A stretch of 29,892 nucleotides of DNA from Sphingobacteriaceae bacterium (GTDB lineage: Bacteria > Bacteroidota > Bacteroidia > B-17B0 > Aurantibacillaceae), in the NCBI GenBank assembly GCA_037440045.1, contig JBBIUW010000001.1, positions 1 to 29,892 on the forward strand, written 5' to 3'. Made by a program: the position numbers and the translations under genes. Below, piece by piece: positions 2,099 to 13,049 of the stretch (the first letter of the stretch is position 1; each line of letters opens with the position of its first letter). A model generated the notes under the pieces. The model had not been told where the DNA came from, ran no database searches, and saw only the letters and a list, made by a program, of their open reading frames with translations.

Positions 2099-2112
2099 AT
2101 GATTTCAATCAT
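2099..2112. promoter_or_regulatory. Crp/Fnr-type palindromic box ATGAT-TTCA-ATCAT
   Basis: Palindromic arms; -7-like AACCTTTG at 2135-2142, 22 nt downstream; ATG at 2157. Confidence 0.7.
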
Positions 2113-2156: not shown

Positions 2157-2750
2157 ATGACACCAATAGAAATAGATAAAATAGTAAATCCTTATTCATA
2201 TAAGGAATACAAAGAGCTTGTAATAAAATTAGCAGAAGAAAAAAAATGTACCGGAGATTCGAGTCCTGAAAGAATTAATGCTACTACACTTAACGCCCAA
2301 AGAATGAAACGAATTGACAAGCAAATTGAATTAAATAATGATTTAAAAAATGTTATTTTATCAATTAATAAAAAATATACTTGGACTCTAATTGTTGAAT
2401 CTTGGTGCGGAGATGGAGCACAGTGTGTTCCAGTTATAGCAAAAATAGCTGAATCAAATCCAAACATTGAATTGAACCTTATTTTAAGAGATGAAAATCC
2501 AAGCTATATGGATATTTTTTTAACTAATGGTTCTAGAGCGATACCTAAATTAATTATTGAATATAATAACAAAGTTATTGGAACCTGGGGGCCAAGACCT
2601 AAAGCAATACAAAAAATGGTAACAGAATACAAACAAAATAATTCTAATGTCTCTCACGAGGATTTTGTTACCATATTACATCTATGGTATGCTAGAGATA
2701 AAACACAATCATTGCAAAATGAATTAAAAGAGATAATATCCGAATTATAA
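2157..2750 (+). CDS. Thioredoxin-family protein (WCGD type)
   Basis: IVESWCGDGAQCVP active-site region, NGSRAIPKLI cis-Pro loop and WGPRP motif. Confidence 0.88.
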   Translation: MTPIEIDKIVNPYSYKEYKELVIKLAEEKKCTGDSSPERINATTLNAQRMKRIDKQIELNNDLKNVILSINKKYTWTLIVESWCGDGAQCVPVIAKIAESNPNIELNLILRDENPSYMDIFLTNGSRAIPKLIIEYNNKVIGTWGPRPKAIQKMVTEYKQNNSNVSHEDFVTILHLWYARDKTQSLQNELKEIISEL

Positions 2751-2776: not shown

Positions 2777-3718
2777 ATGACTACAATAAGCAAAATTGAT
2801 GTGACTGTTCTTGAGCCAAGAATGAAACATCCAACAATTTTTAAAAAATTTGATGAAATAACTGCAGGTGAAAGTTTTATAATTTCCAACGATCACGATC
2901 CTAAACCTTTATATTATCAACTAATTGGAGAGCGTGGGAATATCTTTTCATGGGAATATATTGAAAATGGGCCCGATAACTGGCTGGTGAAAATTCAAAA
3001 AAATAATTCAACTAAAGAAGCTAGTATTGGTGAATTAGTGGCTAAAGATTTAAGAAAAGCTGAAGTGTTTAAGAAATTTAATATTGATTTCTGCTGTGGT
3101 GGTAAAAAAACCTTATCACAGGTTTGTAATGACAAACAAATCAATATAAAAGAGGTTGAAACAGAACTTGAAAAATTAGATTCAACTACCGAATCCGTAT
3201 CACAAAACTATAACGACTGGTCATTAGATTTTTTAGTTGATTTCATAATCAATACTCATCACAAATACGTGAAAAATTCGCTGCCTCTTCTTCTTGAATA
3301 TACTTCAAAAGTTGCCAAGGTACATGGCAAAGAACATCTAGAAGTAATTGCTATTTATGATTTATTTAAAGAAGCTTCTGACGAATTAAACTCACATATG
3401 ATGAAAGAAGAAAATGTCTTATTTCCATATATAAAGCAATTAGTTAACGAGAAGAATTCAGTAAATGAAGGATGTTCTTTTGGAACTGTCAAAAACCCAA
3501 TCAGAATGATGGAACACGAACATGATGTAGTTGGAAATATATTTAAAACTATTAGGGAACTATCTAACGATTATACTCCACCTGAAGATGCATGTACAAC
3601 CTACAAACTTTCATATAAAAAATTAGAAGAATTTGAGAATGATTTACATCAACATATTCATTTAGAGAATAATATATTATTCCCAAAAAGTATAAAATTA
3701 GAATCAGAATTATTATAA
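2777..3718 (+). CDS. ric: Iron-sulfur cluster repair di-iron protein (Ric/YtfE/ScdA) with N-terminal DUF2249 domain
   Basis: N-terminal DVTVLEPRMKHPTIF...NDHDPKPLYYQ (DUF2249); ScdA_N DFCCGG; hemerythrin-like HHKY, HMMKEENVLFP, EHEH and HIHLENNILFP. Confidence 0.93.
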   Translation: MTTISKIDVTVLEPRMKHPTIFKKFDEITAGESFIISNDHDPKPLYYQLIGERGNIFSWEYIENGPDNWLVKIQKNNSTKEASIGELVAKDLRKAEVFKKFNIDFCCGGKKTLSQVCNDKQINIKEVETELEKLDSTTESVSQNYNDWSLDFLVDFIINTHHKYVKNSLPLLLEYTSKVAKVHGKEHLEVIAIYDLFKEASDELNSHMMKEENVLFPYIKQLVNEKNSVNEGCSFGTVKNPIRMMEHEHDVVGNIFKTIRELSNDYTPPEDACTTYKLSYKKLEEFENDLHQHIHLENNILFPKSIKLESELL

Positions 3719-3724
3719 TCACTC

Positions 3725-3755
3725 AACAGGCCTCAAATGAGGCCTGTTTATTTTT
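3725..3755 (+). terminator. Intrinsic terminator-like hairpin after ric
   Basis: AACAGGCCTCA-AA-TGAGGCCTGTT followed by TATTTTT. Confidence 0.7.
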
Positions 3756-3761
3756 ATTGCC

Positions 3762-4568
3762 ATGTATATAGATGAAAATACTAAAATATCAAAAATCATA
3801 AATGATACACCTGAGGCTATTGATGCTATTGTTTCTCTATCGAAACATTTTGAAAAATTGCGAATCCCAATCCTTCGAAAAACACTCGCTTCAAGAGTAA
3901 CAATAAAACAAGCTGCCAAAATTGGAGGAGTATCGGTTAATGATTTTTACAAGAAACTATATCCTTTAGGATTTACATTTGAAACTAGTAAAACTAACAA
4001 CCTTGATTCCGAAAAAGAGGAAGAGGCTTTATTCATTAATAATTTTGAAAATGGTAATGTAGAGGAATTAGATGTAAGAGGAATATTAAAACAAAATAAA
4101 GACCCATTTAATCTTATAATGGATTCGCTAGAAAAACTTCCTGATGGATATACTTTAAATATCATTAATACATTTGAGCCAATTCCATTAATAAATATTT
4201 TATCAAAAAAAGGATATACGCATCAAACAATTTATAAAGACAAACAATTGGTACATACTTATTTCAAAAAACAAATAAGCACAAGCAAAACGATTGATTT
4301 AAATCAAGGTAAAAGCAAAGAAGAATCTGCAGAACTATTAAAAAAATATAAAACAAATATTAAAGAGATAGATGTAAGAAATTTAGAAATGCCATTACCT
4401 ATGTCTACTATTTTAAATGAGTTATTATTATTAAAGGACGATTATTTATTATTTGTTCATCATAAAAAGGTACCTAAATTTTTATTTCCTGAGCTTGCAG
4501 AAAGGGGCTATAAATGGCATATACAGGAAATAAAAGAAGATGATGTGAAATTATATATCTTTAAATAG
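3762..4568 (+). CDS. DUF1858 + tandem DUF2249 (TusA/SirA-like) domain protein
   Basis: N-terminal PEAIDAIVSLSKHFEKLRIPILRKTLASRVTIKQAA (DUF1858-like); two LDVR/IDVR-started domains (LDVRGILKQNKDPF...FEPIPL; IDVRNLEMPLPM...HHKKVPKFLFPEL). Confidence 0.8.
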   Translation: MYIDENTKISKIINDTPEAIDAIVSLSKHFEKLRIPILRKTLASRVTIKQAAKIGGVSVNDFYKKLYPLGFTFETSKTNNLDSEKEEEALFINNFENGNVEELDVRGILKQNKDPFNLIMDSLEKLPDGYTLNIINTFEPIPLINILSKKGYTHQTIYKDKQLVHTYFKKQISTSKTIDLNQGKSKEESAELLKKYKTNIKEIDVRNLEMPLPMSTILNELLLLKDDYLLFVHHKKVPKFLFPELAERGYKWHIQEIKEDDVKLYIFK

Positions 4569-5854
4569 TGATACAGCCAAACATAAAAGATGTAAAAACT
4601 GCTAATGTTGTAATGTTTCATTACATTACAGCTAGTATTCTTTTTTTGGTTATTTGTTGCTTAGTCTTATTTTCTTATCAATCATTTATAGGTCATTATT
4701 TTCATCCAAAATTATTAGCCATTACACATATTACAACACTTGGTTGGATAAGTATGGTTATTATTGGGTCACTTTACCAATTAGCTCCAGTTATTTCAAA
4801 CAGCAAGCTTTTTAGTTTAAAACTAGCTCAGGTCTCTTACTTCTTGATTTTGATTGGCACAACAATGCTAGCTTACTGTTTTTGGGAATTTAATGTGGGT
4901 TATTTAATGCAAGTAGCTTCATCCTTATTGTTTACAGGGGTTAGCTTGTTTGCTCTTAACATGTATTTAACCGCTAATAAAGCAGATGAAAAAAGTATTG
5001 AATCAGACTTTTTAATAAGTTCAGTTATTTGGTTTTGGATGACTGTGTTTTTGGGAGTATTGCTAGCATTTAATTTTCGTTATGCATTTTTACCAAAAGA
5101 GCATTTATACTTTCTGAAAATTCATGCCCATATAGGGCTTGTAGGTTGGTTTTTATGTTTAATAATCGGTATCGCTTCCAGACTGGTTCCTATGTTTTTG
5201 ATTTCTGGGAAACTAAATAAAACACGTTTAAATTATGCCTATTATCTTTTAAATATTGGATTATTGGGATTTATAATAGATAGTATATTTTTTAATGGCA
5301 TCAACAGATCATTTATATATATTATTCCAATCATCATTTCATTAGCGTTTTTTCTGATGTATATTAAAGAAGCCTATCAAAACAGATTAAAAAGAACTTT
5401 AGATATAGGACTTAAACACACCTTTATTTCATTTATTTTAATTATCATCCCAGTAAGTATATGGGTAATTTTAAAAACTATAATTACCGACGAAAAATTA
5501 AAAACTCAATTATCAATTGCCTTAACCTTTAGTATCTTATTTGGATTTATAAGTTTATTAATTTTAGGGCAAACATTTAAAAATTTAGCCTTCATTTCTT
5601 GGTTAAAAAACTATCAGAACTATTCGGGCAATTCTGAAGCACCTTTACCTAAAGACCTGTATTCAGAGAATATCGCAAATATGCAATTGTATCTGTTTTT
5701 AGCTGGTTTTTTAGTTACTTTGATAGGTATCGTTATTTCGAACGAGATCTCTATTCTAATAGGCGCAATCTGCTTATCTGTTACTGCAGTACTTTATAAT
5801 ATTAACGTGTTTAAAATTGTGTTTCATAAACGCAAATCACCAACAATCATATAA
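4568..5854 (+). CDS. Polytopic (~12 TM) membrane protein with conserved His-x5-GW motifs, haem-copper-oxidase subunit I/NnrS-like
   Basis: GTG start overlaps the upstream TAG. Hydrophobic throughout; motifs THITTLGW and HAHIGLVGW. Confidence 0.7.
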   Translation: MIQPNIKDVKTANVVMFHYITASILFLVICCLVLFSYQSFIGHYFHPKLLAITHITTLGWISMVIIGSLYQLAPVISNSKLFSLKLAQVSYFLILIGTTMLAYCFWEFNVGYLMQVASSLLFTGVSLFALNMYLTANKADEKSIESDFLISSVIWFWMTVFLGVLLAFNFRYAFLPKEHLYFLKIHAHIGLVGWFLCLIIGIASRLVPMFLISGKLNKTRLNYAYYLLNIGLLGFIIDSIFFNGINRSFIYIIPIIISLAFFLMYIKEAYQNRLKRTLDIGLKHTFISFILIIIPVSIWVILKTIITDEKLKTQLSIALTFSILFGFISLLILGQTFKNLAFISWLKNYQNYSGNSEAPLPKDLYSENIANMQLYLFLAGFLVTLIGIVISNEISILIGAICLSVTAVLYNINVFKIVFHKRKSPTII

Positions 5855-5855
5855 C

Positions 5856-6182
5856 ATGAACTTATATACTGAAAATAATAAAATTGAAATAGATATTCTT
5901 CATAATCTAAAAGAGATTATTGACCCTGAAGTTACAATCAATATAGTAGATTTAGGCTTAATATATAAGGTTAACTATAACAATGAAATCAATAAAATTC
6001 ACATAGTCATGACTTTATCTACAAAAGGATGTCCGATGGGAGATTTAATTATGTCGCAAATAAAGGAATGCATCAATAGGTATTACCCAACTAGTGAGCT
6101 TGAACTAGAATTAGTTTGGGATCCGGAATGGACGAGGGATTTTATTACACCAAATGGAAAAAAACAGTTGGGGCTTTATTAA
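5856..6182 (+). CDS. DUF59 / SufT-like metal-sulfur cluster biosynthesis protein
   Basis: IIDPEVTINIVDLGLIY, TLSTKGCPMG and VWDPEW motifs. Start moved to the ATG at 5856 (MNLYTEN), 1 nt after the upstream stop. Confidence 0.88.
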   Translation: MNLYTENNKIEIDILHNLKEIIDPEVTINIVDLGLIYKVNYNNEINKIHIVMTLSTKGCPMGDLIMSQIKECINRYYPTSELELELVWDPEWTRDFITPNGKKQLGLY

Positions 6183-6185
6183 ATG

Positions 6186-6557
6186 TTATTTAAACATTTT
6201 AATTTGCATGATTGTGCTGATACTTTGTGCTCTCTGTTTAATTAATTCCGCATTTTCTCCTTCAAATAACTCATCTACTGTTTCATTGAACAGTATTGTC
6301 CATTGAGTAAAATCTTTAATGGTAAAAGGATGTTTAGAGTGTATTGCTAAATGCTGCTGCATAGGATTTCCGTTATAATTGCCTGTATAAAACAACACGT
6401 TTTCCCAAAAACGATACATGATCGGTAAATGTTGCTCCCAATCAACTTTCACAACATCAGAAAAAAAATGACTAATGATTTTATCTTGCTTTACTTTCTC
6501 GTAAAAAACATTCACTAGTTTTTCAATGTCTTTTCTATTTAAAATATCTTTTTTCAT
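6186..6557 (-). CDS. Group III truncated haemoglobin
   Basis: DIEKLVNVFYEKVKQD, DWEQHLPIMYRFWENVLF, GNPMQQH, F..W..LF.ETVDELFEG and A..IK.RAQSI motifs. Confidence 0.9.
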   Translation of the reverse strand: MKKDILNRKDIEKLVNVFYEKVKQDKIISHFFSDVVKVDWEQHLPIMYRFWENVLFYTGNYNGNPMQQHLAIHSKHPFTIKDFTQWTILFNETVDELFEGENAELIKQRAQSISTIMQIKMFK

Positions 6558-6629
6558 GCGTAATTCTTATTGTTTTTAATTTATTGCAACATGATATTTA
6601 TAGTTATTAAAACAATTATAAATTCATGT

Positions 6630-7397
6630 TTATAAATCTTTACGTTTAAATTTAACAAGAGACACCCAATATGGAATTGCTATCCACAGAAACAAAATAA
6701 TAAACACTAATACCACCCCCAGAGTAGTCCCAAAAAAGTCTTTAAAAATAGCCCCAGTATATCCCATCATAGCAGAAACATCTAAATGCAGAAGAATTAG
6801 TATGCGAGCTAAATCAATTGGATTTAGAGCTGTAATTCCAACCATCATTTTTTCAATAGGGTAATCTGCTAATTGAAATAATAAAAACAAGACTATACCG
6901 TCAAAAAGCAAAGCAAAAAACAACCACAACATAATTGATATACCAATTCCCTTAGCTTTATCACGTGTTATAATAGAACTTAAAAAAGCAATAGACACAA
7001 ATACTGTTGAAATAAATAATCCAACCAACAACATCATAAAGCCAACGTCTCCGGGAGCATAGATTAAAATAGGAATTCCCACTCCAATAAAAAATGATAG
7101 TAATAATGAGATTACCAAACCGAAAAATAAACTCCACCAAATTTTAGACCTATTAATAGGCTGACTGAGCAACAATTCAATAAACTCTGAACTATTATAT
7201 AAATAAATGGTAGAAAAAATTACAGATACTAAAGGCACAGTTAATAAAACAACATTTAATAATGTCAAAATTCCTTTAGTACTATTATCCTCTAAACTAA
7301 ATACGCTCCAAGCTAACACAGCCAAAATAAGCGTGTAAACCAATACTATTTTGTTTTTTAAAATATCTAAAACTATAAACTTTACTATCCTATTCAT
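6630..7397 (-). CDS. nosY: Nos ABC transporter permease NosY
   Basis: ABC-2 permease (ELLLSQPINR, LNPIDLARILILL) directly downstream of nosF. Confidence 0.88.
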   Translation of the reverse strand: MNRIVKFIVLDILKNKIVLVYTLILAVLAWSVFSLEDNSTKGILTLLNVVLLTVPLVSVIFSTIYLYNSSEFIELLLSQPINRSKIWWSLFFGLVISLLLSFFIGVGIPILIYAPGDVGFMMLLVGLFISTVFVSIAFLSSIITRDKAKGIGISIMLWLFFALLFDGIVLFLLFQLADYPIEKMMVGITALNPIDLARILILLHLDVSAMMGYTGAIFKDFFGTTLGVVLVFIILFLWIAIPYWVSLVKFKRKDL

Positions 7398-12968: not shown

Positions 12969-13049
12969 ATGATTGAAATCATAAAATAGACTAGATTAAT
13001 ATCATTTATAAATATGATTATAATCATATTTATAAATGATATTATATTT
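12969..13049. promoter_or_regulatory. Phased array of ATGAT-N4-ATCAT boxes upstream of the nos operon
   Basis: ATGAT-TGAA-ATCAT (12969), TAGAT-TAAT-ATCAT (12992), ATGAT-TATA-ATCAT (13014) and a half-site ATGAT (13036); spacings 23, 22 and 22 nt. Confidence 0.72.

What the first reader, a model, noticed from the sequence alone, without database searches (positions are those of the whole stretch)
2777..6182. ric - DUF1858/DUF2249 - His-membrane protein - DUF59: candidate metal-cluster repair machine beside nos
Seen: four co-oriented genes, the last three translationally coupled (TAG/GTG overlap at 4568; 1-nt gap at 5855), containing three DUF2249 domains in total, one fused to Ric. Established: Ric repairs NO-damaged Fe-S/di-iron centres, DUF59/SufT assists Fe-S maturation, and DUF2249 resembles TusA/SirA sulfur-carrier folds. 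Inference: an integrated system in which a membrane haem protein senses or supplies reductant, DUF2249 modules shuttle sulfur or metal, and DUF59/Ric rebuild clusters. It could also feed sulfur to the NosDFY route for the CuZ sulfide. The module is not mechanistically described to my knowledge.
Basis: partly seen in the sequence, partly recalled or inferred. Interest (0 to 1): 0.7.

Follow-up and report, generated by a model that had tools for sequence, protein, structure and literature searches.

The report
Conserved Ric plus oxidase-like membrane operon
This is a real, widely conserved operon of Bacteroidota that joins the iron-centre repair protein Ric to an untested one-haem, oxidase-shaped membrane protein and two small partners; it probably helps cells cope with nitric oxide, and it is not a sulfur supply line for nitrous-oxide reductase.

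Summary
Four co-oriented genes lie at 2777-6182: DUF2249-Ric, DUF1858+2xDUF2249, a 428-aa membrane protein and DUF59. The junctions are as described. A fifth gene (Trx_9, 2157-2750) probably heads the operon.

- **Membrane protein:** it has the 12-helix fold of haem-copper oxidase/NO-reductase subunit I. Only two histidines (H54, H186) are invariant family-wide, which fits an 'HCO-homology' protein with one bis-His haem.
- **Second gene:** it has the domain architecture of Thermus DrpB.
- **Conservation in 80 Bacteroidota species genomes:** the DrpB-like gene is upstream in 75/75 loci, DUF59 downstream in 79/80, and DUF2249-Ric nearby in 63/67.
- **Wider spread:** natural membrane-protein/DUF59 fusions exist. 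The DUF2249 / membrane protein / DUF59 triad also recurs in distant metagenome contigs, once beside a Nar-type cluster.
- **Link to nos:** nos genes are within 10 kb in only 13/59 loci, although 20/22 sampled carrier genomes have nosZ or nirK.
- **Sulfur relay:** the DUF2249 domains have a TusA/SirA fold but no conserved cysteine, so a persulfide relay and a CuZ sulfur feed are not supported.
- **Regulation:** a palindromic box is shared with the nos promoter.

This scan has already reported the same module on other DNA (at least 11 genomes). It is a new member of a known but biochemically untested kind.

The parts
2099..2112 (.). Perfect palindromic box ATGATTTCAATCAT, 45 nt upstream of the Trx_9 start. 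It is the same 14-mer (reverse complement) as the nos-promoter box at 12969-12982. Probable CRP/FNR-type operator.
   Evidence: 23 matches with up to 1 mismatch against 9.2 expected, and 0 of 100 shuffles reach 23; an exact box lies within 250 nt upstream of ric in 34/70 related loci, of Trx_9 in 20/33 and of the drpB-like gene in 0/78. Background density is 0.106 per kb.
2157..2750 (+). Thioredoxin_9-family protein (197 aa) with a single conserved Cys (WCGD). Probable first gene of the operon.
   Evidence: Pfam PF14595, E 5e-39. It lies 26 nt upstream of ric. It is directly upstream on the same strand in the closest relatives L002-L009, L011 and L013. Conservation. A 526-nt metatranscriptome contig of a relative spans the Trx_9-ric junction (record 17).
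2777..3718 (+). DUF2249-Ric fusion (313 aa). Residues 1-78 are a Cys-free DUF2249 domain with invariant KHPTIF and NDHDPKPLYYQL motifs. Residues 79-313 are a RIC di-iron protein (ScdA_N with a CC pair, plus hemerythrin).
   Evidence: TIGR03652 254.8 bits, cut-off 204.7; YtfE 5fnn, E 2e-38; conservation.
3725..3758 (+). Terminator-like hairpin (10-bp stem, 6 GC pairs) plus a T-run, between ric and the next gene. Probable partial terminator or attenuator, or an RNA-stabilising element.
   Evidence: a hairpin at the same place in L001-L009, L011, L013 and L069 has different stem sequences (CAGGCCTC, CAGACCC, AGGCCC, TAGCCC), all followed by T-rich runs.
3762..4568 (+). DrpB-like protein (268 aa): DUF1858 + DUF2249 + DUF2249. 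It has no Cys and no membrane helix.
   Evidence: AF2 model of mean pLDDT 76. Foldseek matches by domain: 2fi0 (DUF1858, TMt 0.76) and SirA-like 3hz7 (TMt 0.75). The same architecture is described for Thermus DrpB.
4568..5854 (+). 12-helix membrane protein (428 aa) with the haem-copper oxidase subunit I fold (HCO-homology type). Putative bis-His haem ligands are H54 (TM2) and H186 (TM6). The GTG start overlaps the upstream stop.
   Evidence: AF2 pLDDT 82.9, pTM 0.83. Foldseek PDB: CyoB, CtaD, CcoN and NorB at TMq 0.6-0.72, E down to 6e-6. H54 and H186 are invariant in 132/132 family representatives. Internal repeat. N-in/C-in topology, 16 against 5 K+R.
5856..6182 (+). DUF59 protein (108 aa) with the conserved Cys-Pro of the family. 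Its start lies 1 nt after the upstream stop.
   Evidence: PF01883 41.7 bits. The SufT and PaaD equivalog cut-offs are not reached. C59-P60 are at least 95% conserved. Downstream of the membrane gene in 79/80 loci. Fused to its C-terminus in P0143, P0149, P0161, P0174 and P0194.

Best explanation
The stretch is one copy of a conserved operon induced by anoxia or NO. Its layout here is: box, Trx_9, DUF2249-Ric, hairpin, DrpB-like, oxidase-fold membrane protein, DUF59.

Shown:
- The gene order is conserved across Bacteroidota.
- The last three genes form a tight core. A triad of a DUF2249 protein, the membrane protein and DUF59 also occurs in distant metagenome contigs, once beside a Nar-type cluster.
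- The membrane protein has the subunit I fold, and only two histidines are invariant across the family.
- DUF59 is sometimes fused to its cytoplasmic C-terminus.
- The DUF2249 domains are TusA-fold domains without the active cysteine.

Inferred:
- The membrane protein holds one b-type haem, ligated by H54 and H186 near the outer face.
- It acts as a membrane anchor and redox link (quinol or redox state to cytoplasm) for DUF59 and the DrpB-like adaptor.
- Together with Ric, these protect, de-nitrosylate or re-metallate iron centres while the cell respires N-oxides.

Nos is a frequent neighbour because both belong to the same regulon, not because the module builds CuZ.
For: Conservation:
- DrpB-like gene upstream in 75/75 loci, DUF59 downstream in 79/80, DUF2249-Ric within 4 kb in 63/67.
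- The core genes are tightly spaced in most loci.

Physical link:
- Five separate 50%-identity clusters encode membrane-protein/DUF59 fusions.

Fold and ligands:
-.

Context in relatives:
- An Rrf2 regulator follows on the same strand in 48/80 loci. CRP/FNR regulators, a truncated globin, a class II ribonucleotide reductase and the Fe-S enzyme NadA recur nearby.
- Distant members sit beside a Nar-type Mo enzyme with NarJ, CRP/FNR and hemerythrin.

Phyletic pattern:
- The membrane protein occurs in 23/401 sampled genomes of the phylum. Of the 22 other than this one, 17 have nosZ and 3 more have nirK. The sample background is nosZ 135/401 and nirK 49/401.

Shared box with nos:
-.

Other support:
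- This genome also has a norCB-like pair.
- Ric is a full RIC.
- Literature: Thermus drpAB mutants deregulate nar and dnr and make little active nitrate reductase, and DrpB is partly membrane-bound (PMC6282519). Haloarchaeal DUF2249 genes are induced under denitrification (PMC11218638).
- Weak hint of expression: activated-sludge metatranscriptome contigs of 90-95% relatives cover Trx_9, ric, the drpB-like gene and the 5' part of the membrane gene.
Against: - No biochemistry exists for the membrane protein, DUF2249, DUF1858 or this DUF59 subfamily.
- Haem binding is inferred only from two invariant His and the fold.
- The direction of any electron or signal flow is unknown.
- In Thermus the related DrpAB pair was read as a regulator, not a repair system.
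- The RNA contigs may include DNA carry-over and come from relatives.
Confidence: 0.55

Rival explanations
1. Signal-transduction module of the Thermus DrpAB type. The membrane haem protein senses NO, O2 or redox state. The DrpB-like protein relays this to transcription factors that control denitrification genes. Ric and DUF59 are co-regulated passengers.
For: - Gene 2 has the DrpB architecture.
- drpA and drpB mutants change nar and dnr expression, and DrpB is partly membrane-associated without a membrane helix.
- Rrf2 or CRP/FNR regulator genes lie beside the module in many loci.
- A bis-His haem suits sensing or electron transfer better than catalysis.
Against: - The DrpB-like protein has no DNA-binding or phosphotransfer domain.
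- The invariant partner is DUF59, a family tied to Fe-S protein maturation, and it is even fused to the membrane protein.
- One DUF2249 domain is fused to the enzyme Ric.
- Thermus double mutants also lose nitrate reductase activity despite normal protein levels, which points to maturation.
Confidence: 0.2
2. The membrane protein is itself an NO-consuming or NO-buffering enzyme: a stripped-down NO reductase, or an NnrS-like protector. It would dispose of NO released by Ric and pass N2O on to the neighbouring NosZ.
For: - Subunit I / NorB fold.
- Within the Bacteroidota subfamily five His are invariant (H43, H54, H179, H186, H188), enough for a haem plus a second metal site.
- Recurrent closeness to nos: within 16 kb in 7 of 22 sampled carriers.
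Against: - Across the wider family only H54 and H186 are invariant. H43, H179 and H188 fall to 50-66%.
- No canonical CuB/FeB ligand set is present, and Pfam COX1 is below its cut-off.
- There is no NnrS hit.
- The genome already has a norCB-like pair.
Confidence: 0.12
3. A dedicated assembly or maturation factor set for a respiratory metalloenzyme (Nar, Nor or Nos, depending on the lineage), rather than a general repair system.
For: - The triad lies directly after a Nar-type cluster with NarJ in a distant contig, and after nar in Thermus.
- Thermus drpAB mutants make nitrate reductase protein with little activity.
- The module is beside nos here and in 13/59 loci.
Against: - In most Bacteroidota loci no respiratory enzyme gene lies within 10 kb.
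- The neighbours vary: ribonucleotide reductase, NadA/NadB, Rrf2.
- The fused and adjacent partner is Ric, a general repair protein.
Confidence: 0.1
4. One reading: DUF2249 modules carry persulfide sulfur, and the module feeds sulfide to NosDFY for the CuZ centre.
For: - TusA/SirA-like fold of DUF2249 and weak Pfam TusA hits.
- Position next to nosY-nosF-nosD in this window.
Against: - No Cys in 69/69 Ric-fused DUF2249 domains. The DrpB-like protein here has none, and none is conserved in the family.
- By motif alignment (inference), the position of the TusA Cys-Pro-x-Pro cysteine holds His, Asp or Met.
- The soluble proteins have no predicted membrane helix, and DUF59 attaches to the cytoplasmic end, whereas CuZ is assembled in the periplasm (established knowledge).
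- nos is within 10 kb in only 13/59 loci.
- Five of 22 sampled carrier genomes showed no nosZ.
Confidence: 0.03

Closest known systems
RIC proteins (E. coli YtfE, S. aureus ScdA, DnrN)
   Same: Residues 79-313 of gene 1 match TIGR03652 above its cut-off and YtfE structures at E 2e-38. The ScdA_N Cys pair and the His/Glu di-iron ligands are conserved.
   Different: An extra N-terminal Cys-free DUF2249 domain is present in 63/67 related loci. The gene is also embedded in an operon with a membrane module. The named RICs are about 220 residues long and align only with residues 81-306.
Thermus thermophilus DrpB and DrpA (denitrification regulatory proteins, PMC6282519)
   Same: Gene 2 has the DrpB architecture: DUF1858 + 2 x DUF2249, 268 aa against 273 aa, with no membrane helix. 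Both are encoded in N-oxide respiration contexts.
   Different: There is no stand-alone DrpA here; the single DUF2249 domain is fused to Ric. Here the gene is translationally coupled to an oxidase-fold membrane protein and DUF59, which the Thermus paper does not discuss. Direct sequence similarity to Thermus DrpB was not tested, because no sequence was held.
Three-unit 'HCO homology' (HCOH) membrane proteins of Pei, Li, Kinch and Grishin 2014 (Protein Sci 23:1220), a group that includes NnrS
   Same: 12 helices in three 4-helix units, the subunit I fold, two conserved histidines suggesting one haem, and genomic links to denitrification and DUF2249. The DUF2249 link is cited in PMC11218638. The paper itself could not be opened, so its content is from my own knowledge.
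   Different: It is not NnrS (no PF05940 hit). This Bacteroidota subfamily keeps three further histidines (H43, H179, H188).
Haem-copper oxidase / NO reductase catalytic subunits (CyoB, CtaD, CcoN, NorB)
   Same: Overall fold: Foldseek TMq 0.6-0.72, probability 1.00.
   Different: About 10-14% identity. Pfam COX1 scores 27.6 bits, below its cut-off of 34.8. Only two invariant His are present instead of six metal ligands, and no partner subunit genes are found. Profile comparison with this genome's own NorB-like protein gave nothing.
SufT / DUF59 Fe-S maturation factors and TusA/SirA sulfur carriers
   Same: Gene 4 is a DUF59 protein with the conserved Cys-Pro. The DUF2249 domains have the TusA/SirA fold.
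   Different: Gene 4 misses the SufT, SUF-associated and PaaD equivalog cut-offs. DUF2249 lacks the TusA cysteine.

Membership tests
RIC (repair of iron centres; TIGR03652) | Model score above the curated cut-off, over the full length | tested here: met
   254.8 bits against a cut-off of 204.7, residues 84-304. YtfE 5fnn at E 1.9e-38.
RIC (repair of iron centres; TIGR03652) | ScdA_N domain with a conserved Cys pair, and a hemerythrin-like domain with His/Glu di-iron ligands | tested here: met
   The DFCCGG motif, HH, H, H..E, EH and H.H.E positions are at least 95% conserved in 71 homologues. Pfam ScdA_N and Hemerythrin hits.
RIC (repair of iron centres; TIGR03652) | Restores Fe-S enzyme activity after NO or peroxide damage | not testable with these tools
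   Needs genetics and enzyme assays.
DrpB (Thermus denitrification regulatory protein B) | DUF1858 followed by two DUF2249 domains, about 270 aa, no membrane helix | tested here: met
   Architecture as described in PMC6282519.
DrpB (Thermus denitrification regulatory protein B) | Encoded with an overlapping stand-alone DUF2249 gene (drpA), downstream of nar | tested here: not met
   There is no stand-alone DUF2249 gene and no nar in the window. The single DUF2249 domain is fused to Ric.
DrpB (Thermus denitrification regulatory protein B) | Direct sequence similarity to Thermus DrpB | not tested
   No Thermus sequence was available. The top 120 homologues were all Bacteroidota or unnamed.
Three-unit HCO-homology (HCOH) proteins | 12 membrane helices built from three related 4-helix units, with the subunit I fold | tested here: met
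   AF2 model. Foldseek. hhalign unit 1 against unit 3: probability 94%, E 1e-7. Unit 1 against unit 2 is weak (E 0.0015) but aligns H43/H179 and the GW motif.
Three-unit HCOH proteins | Two conserved histidines (one-haem site) instead of the six oxidase ligands | tested here: met
   H54 and H186 are invariant in 132/132 representatives. All other His are at most 66% conserved.
Three-unit HCOH proteins | Actually binds haem | not testable with these tools
   Needs purification and spectroscopy.
Haem-copper oxidase / NOR catalytic subunit (PF00115) | Pfam gathering score, and six canonical His ligands (two haems plus CuB/FeB) | tested here: not met
   27.6 bits against a cut-off of 34.8. Only two invariant His.
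NnrS (PF05940) | Match to the NnrS model | tested here: not met
   No hit at E up to 0.01.
SufT / SUF-associated DUF59 / PaaD equivalogs | Equivalog score above the cut-off | tested here: not met
   TIGR03406 85.3 against 202.6. TIGR02945 79.3 against 143.4. PaaD models are also below their cut-offs. Membership of the DUF59 domain family itself is met (PF01883).
TusA/SirA sulfur carriers | Two-layer alpha/beta TusA fold | tested here: met
   Foldseek to SirA-like 3hz7 (TMt 0.75, rmsd 1.9, probability 1.00) and to YeeD in 8k1r. Weak Pfam TusA hits.
TusA/SirA sulfur carriers | Conserved active-site cysteine (Cys-Pro-x-Pro) | tested here: not met
   0 Cys in 69/69 Ric-fused domains. No Cys in P0002. 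No conserved Cys in 72 DrpB-like proteins.

The most novel reading that the evidence does not exclude
The DrpB-like / oxidase-fold haem protein / DUF59 triad may be the missing physiological redox partner of RIC proteins. In this reading a quinol-linked, one-haem membrane protein delivers electrons, and possibly iron, through Cys-free TusA-fold DUF2249 adaptors to the di-iron centre of Ric and to DUF59-bound targets. The TusA cysteine position in the adaptors would be taken by His, Asp or Met metal ligands. That would explain the fusion of DUF2249 to Ric and of DUF59 to the membrane protein. It would also define a new use of the oxidase fold.
Probability: 0.18. Interest if true: 0.7.

Novelty: new member of a known kind. 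Interest (0 to 1): 0.42.

Why it matters
The module is conserved in Bacteroidota and recurs in distant contigs. In the sampled genomes it sits almost only in organisms that respire N-oxides, including the non-denitrifying N2O reducers that matter for N2O emissions from soils and wastewater. Its core proteins have never been purified: an oxidase-fold one-haem protein, DUF2249/DUF1858 and a DUF59. Knowing what they do would show how such bacteria keep iron enzymes working in the presence of NO. It might also identify the unknown reductant of RIC proteins. For this window specifically, the result is mainly a correction: the cluster is not a CuZ sulfur supply system, and nos is a regulon neighbour.

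Tried and rejected
1. Complex prediction of the membrane protein with the DrpB-like protein (alignments A1 and A2) gave 'no answer' (score 0.12, mark 0.32). It says nothing either way.
2. Profile comparison of the membrane-protein alignment with this genome's NorB-like protein gave no usable alignment (probability 6%). The correspondence of H54 and H186 to particular oxidase ligands therefore could not be fixed by sequence.
3. Pei et al. 2014 (PMC4243994) is not held. A search for 'HCOH' returned only chemistry papers.
4. Sequence searches of PDB with the membrane protein and with the DrpB-like profile found only 2fi0, for DUF1858. No TusA alignment was obtained. The statement that His, Asp or Met sit at the TusA cysteine position therefore rests on motif comparison and on the range of a weak Pfam hit, not on an alignment.
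5. The homologue search with the DrpB-like protein did not reach Thermus. Whether Thermus drpAB has an oxidase-fold gene nearby was not tested.
6. Read laying: parts of the operon (about 5530-6320) had little or no cover in the RNA contigs. This is not evidence of anything. The X17 contig ending at 4592 has fewer than 31 letters beyond the 4568 junction, so it does not count as bridging.
7. Chance adjacency of unrelated genes was rejected by the conservation counts.
8. nirK was not found in this genome. The assembly is only 72% complete, so absence is not shown.

Full report
**What is there.** The window is low-GC (about 30%) DNA of a Bacteroidota-type genome. On the + strand lie five genes.
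- A Thioredoxin_9 gene (2157-2750).
- DUF2249-Ric (2777-3718).
- A DUF1858 + 2 x DUF2249 protein (3762-4568).
- A 428-aa polytopic membrane protein (4568-5854).
- A DUF59 protein, whose real start is ATG 5856 and which ends at 6182.

TAG and GTG share a base at 4568, and a single base separates TAA from ATG at 5855. The cluster converges on a clade-II-type nos cluster on the - strand: cytochrome c, nosZ, an ORF, nosL, nosD, nosF, nosY and a truncated globin. The two stop codons are only 3 nt apart.

**Operon limits and control.**
- A terminator-like hairpin lies before 2064.
- A perfect palindrome, ATGATTTCAATCAT, sits at 2099-2112, 45 nt before the Trx_9 start.
- In 80 related loci an exact ATGAY-N4-RTCAT box lies within 250 nt upstream of ric in 34/70, of Trx_9 in 20/33 and of the first nos gene in 8/14. 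It never lies upstream of the DrpB-like gene (0/78). Background density is 0.106 per kb.
- The downstream genes therefore depend on the ric or Trx_9 promoter, and the module shares a regulator with nos.
- Between ric and the next gene lies a 10-bp GC-rich hairpin with a T-run (3725-3758). The same feature, with different stem sequences, is present in the dozen closest loci. It is probably a partial terminator that sets more Ric than membrane module.

**The membrane protein.**
- An AlphaFold model (pLDDT 82.9, pTM 0.83) has 12 long helices.
- Foldseek finds only catalytic subunits of haem-copper oxidases and NO reductases (TMq 0.6-0.72, E down to 6e-6, about 12% identity). In AFDB Swiss-Prot the best hits are two uncharacterised Aquifex proteins.
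- Pfam COX1 is hit below its cut-off.
- The three 4-helix units are still related. Unit 1 against unit 3 gives hhalign probability 94%. Unit 1 against unit 2 is weak but aligns H43/H179.
- In the Bacteroidota subfamily five His are invariant. Across 132 representatives of the wider family only H54 (helix 2) and H186 (helix 6) are invariant.
- The positive-inside count (16 against 5) puts both termini in the cytoplasm and both histidines 7-9 residues from the outer end of their helices.
- This fits the 'HCO homology' proteins with one bis-His haem described by Pei et al. 2014. I could not open that paper. Its link between DUF2249 and the oxidase superfamily is quoted in PMC11218638.
- The family is large: 2827 representatives at E <= 0.001.

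**Conservation of the set.** From 80 species-representative genomes carrying the membrane protein:
- the DrpB-like gene is directly upstream in 75/75 evaluable loci;
- DUF59 is directly downstream in 79/80;
- DUF2249-Ric lies within 4 kb in 63/67;
- the core genes are tightly spaced;
- five independent clusters encode the membrane protein fused at its C-terminus to DUF59, which is strong evidence that the two act together on the cytoplasmic side.

Distant members keep the triad of a DUF2249 protein, the membrane protein and DUF59. It was seen after a Nar-type molybdoenzyme with NarJ, and beside CRP/FNR regulators and hemerythrin. Ric is less tightly bound to the core. Pontibacter species insert an extra hemerythrin gene, other loci insert several kb, and here the hairpin intervenes.

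**Relation to nos.**
- Any nos gene lies within 10 kb in only 13/59 loci, and nosZ in 9/59.
- In an even sample of 401 genomes of the phylum, 23 carry the membrane protein. Of the 22 other than this one, 17 have nosZ (7 of them within 16 kb) and three more have nirK. The sample background is 135/401 for nosZ and 49/401 for nirK. Related genomes are not independent, but several families are involved.
- The module therefore belongs to N-oxide respirers, not to nos as such.
- Two control layouts exist. An Rrf2 regulator follows DUF59 in 48/80 loci. Loci without it, like this one, more often carry the box (23/31 against 14/36) and nos (9/31 against 4/36).
- This genome has an Rrf2 gene elsewhere, next to nrdD, and a norCB-like pair on another contig.

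**The small proteins.**
- Gene 2 has the architecture of Thermus DrpB.
- Its model matches 2fi0 for DUF1858, and the SirA-like protein 3hz7 and YeeD for DUF2249.
- The active cysteine is missing. There is none in 69/69 Ric-fused domains, none in this DrpB-like protein, and none conserved in 72 homologues.
- By motif comparison with the TusA Cys-Pro-x-Pro signature (inference, not an alignment), that position is taken by invariant His (KHPT, Ric-fused domain), Asp (DPF) and Met (EMPxPM). The second motif carries DHD, FE and H. These are residues that could bind metal.
- DUF59 keeps its Cys-Pro but is not a SufT or PaaD equivalog.
- The ScdA_N domain of Ric weakly resembles DUF1858 (E 0.056). 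If that is real, Ric and the DrpB-like protein are built from the same two module types.

**Reading.**
- Most likely (0.55): a membrane-anchored system that protects or repairs iron centres, induced with the N-oxide respiration regulon. The one-haem protein would link membrane redox state to the cytoplasmic partners.
- Rivals: a DrpAB-type sensor (0.2), an NO-consuming enzyme (0.12), and a maturation factor for a respiratory enzyme (0.1).
- The CuZ sulfur feed (0.03) is contradicted by the lack of cysteine, the cytoplasmic location and the loose link to nos.
- Expression evidence is weak. Activated-sludge metatranscriptome contigs from 90-95% relatives cover parts of the operon, and one spans the Trx_9-ric junction.

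**Novelty.** The components are known as families. The module has been reported repeatedly by this scan on other DNA (at least 11 genomes), including an Rrf2-controlled Bacteroidota version. This copy adds the following:
- the variant controlled by the box and adjacent to nos;
- the conserved hairpin;
- the DUF59 fusions;
- the two-histidine result across the family;
- the cysteine test.

No biochemistry exists, so the function remains open.

Noticed in passing
window 3725-3758; L001-L009, L011, L013, L069 (ric / drpB-like spacer): A conserved terminator-like hairpin with compensating stem changes lies only about 10-15 nt before the next start codon. It may be an attenuator that sets the ratio of Ric to the membrane module.
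   Followed up: partly
window 6182-6186: The DUF59 gene and the truncated-globin gene that ends the nos operon converge with 3 nt between their stop codons. No room is left for terminators outside coding sequence, so the two transcripts may overlap.
   Followed up: no
G000 contig 2 (L086 10098-13027, - strand; 6403-6870): The same genome has a cytochrome c plus 443-aa COX1-family pair that looks like norCB. It also has an Rrf2 regulator next to the anaerobic ribonucleotide reductase nrdD. nirK was not found, but the assembly is 72% complete.
   Followed up: partly
G063:C1:345803-350188: In one sampled genome a sub-threshold nirK-like multicopper gene (176 bits, cut-off 296) lies about 2 kb from the membrane-protein gene.
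   Followed up: no
L024 8321-8821 and other Pontibacter loci: An extra 166-aa hemerythrin gene sits between ric and the DrpB-like gene. Rrf2, then NadA and NadB, follow DUF59, and a class II ribonucleotide reductase lies upstream.
   Followed up: partly
window 2157-2750: The Trx_9 protein keeps only one conserved cysteine (WCGD), so it is a monothiol thioredoxin-like protein. It lies within 10 kb of the module in 29/59 loci.
   Followed up: partly
L077 5943-7238; L069 13261-15072: Two recurrent neighbours (a 431-aa protein in 33 loci and a roughly 600-aa protein in 16 loci) have no Pfam or NCBIfam match.
   Followed up: no
window 3639-3652: A one-mismatch copy of the box (ATGATTTACATCAA) lies inside the 3' end of ric, about 110 nt before the DrpB-like start. 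No exact box was found at this place in relatives.
   Followed up: partly
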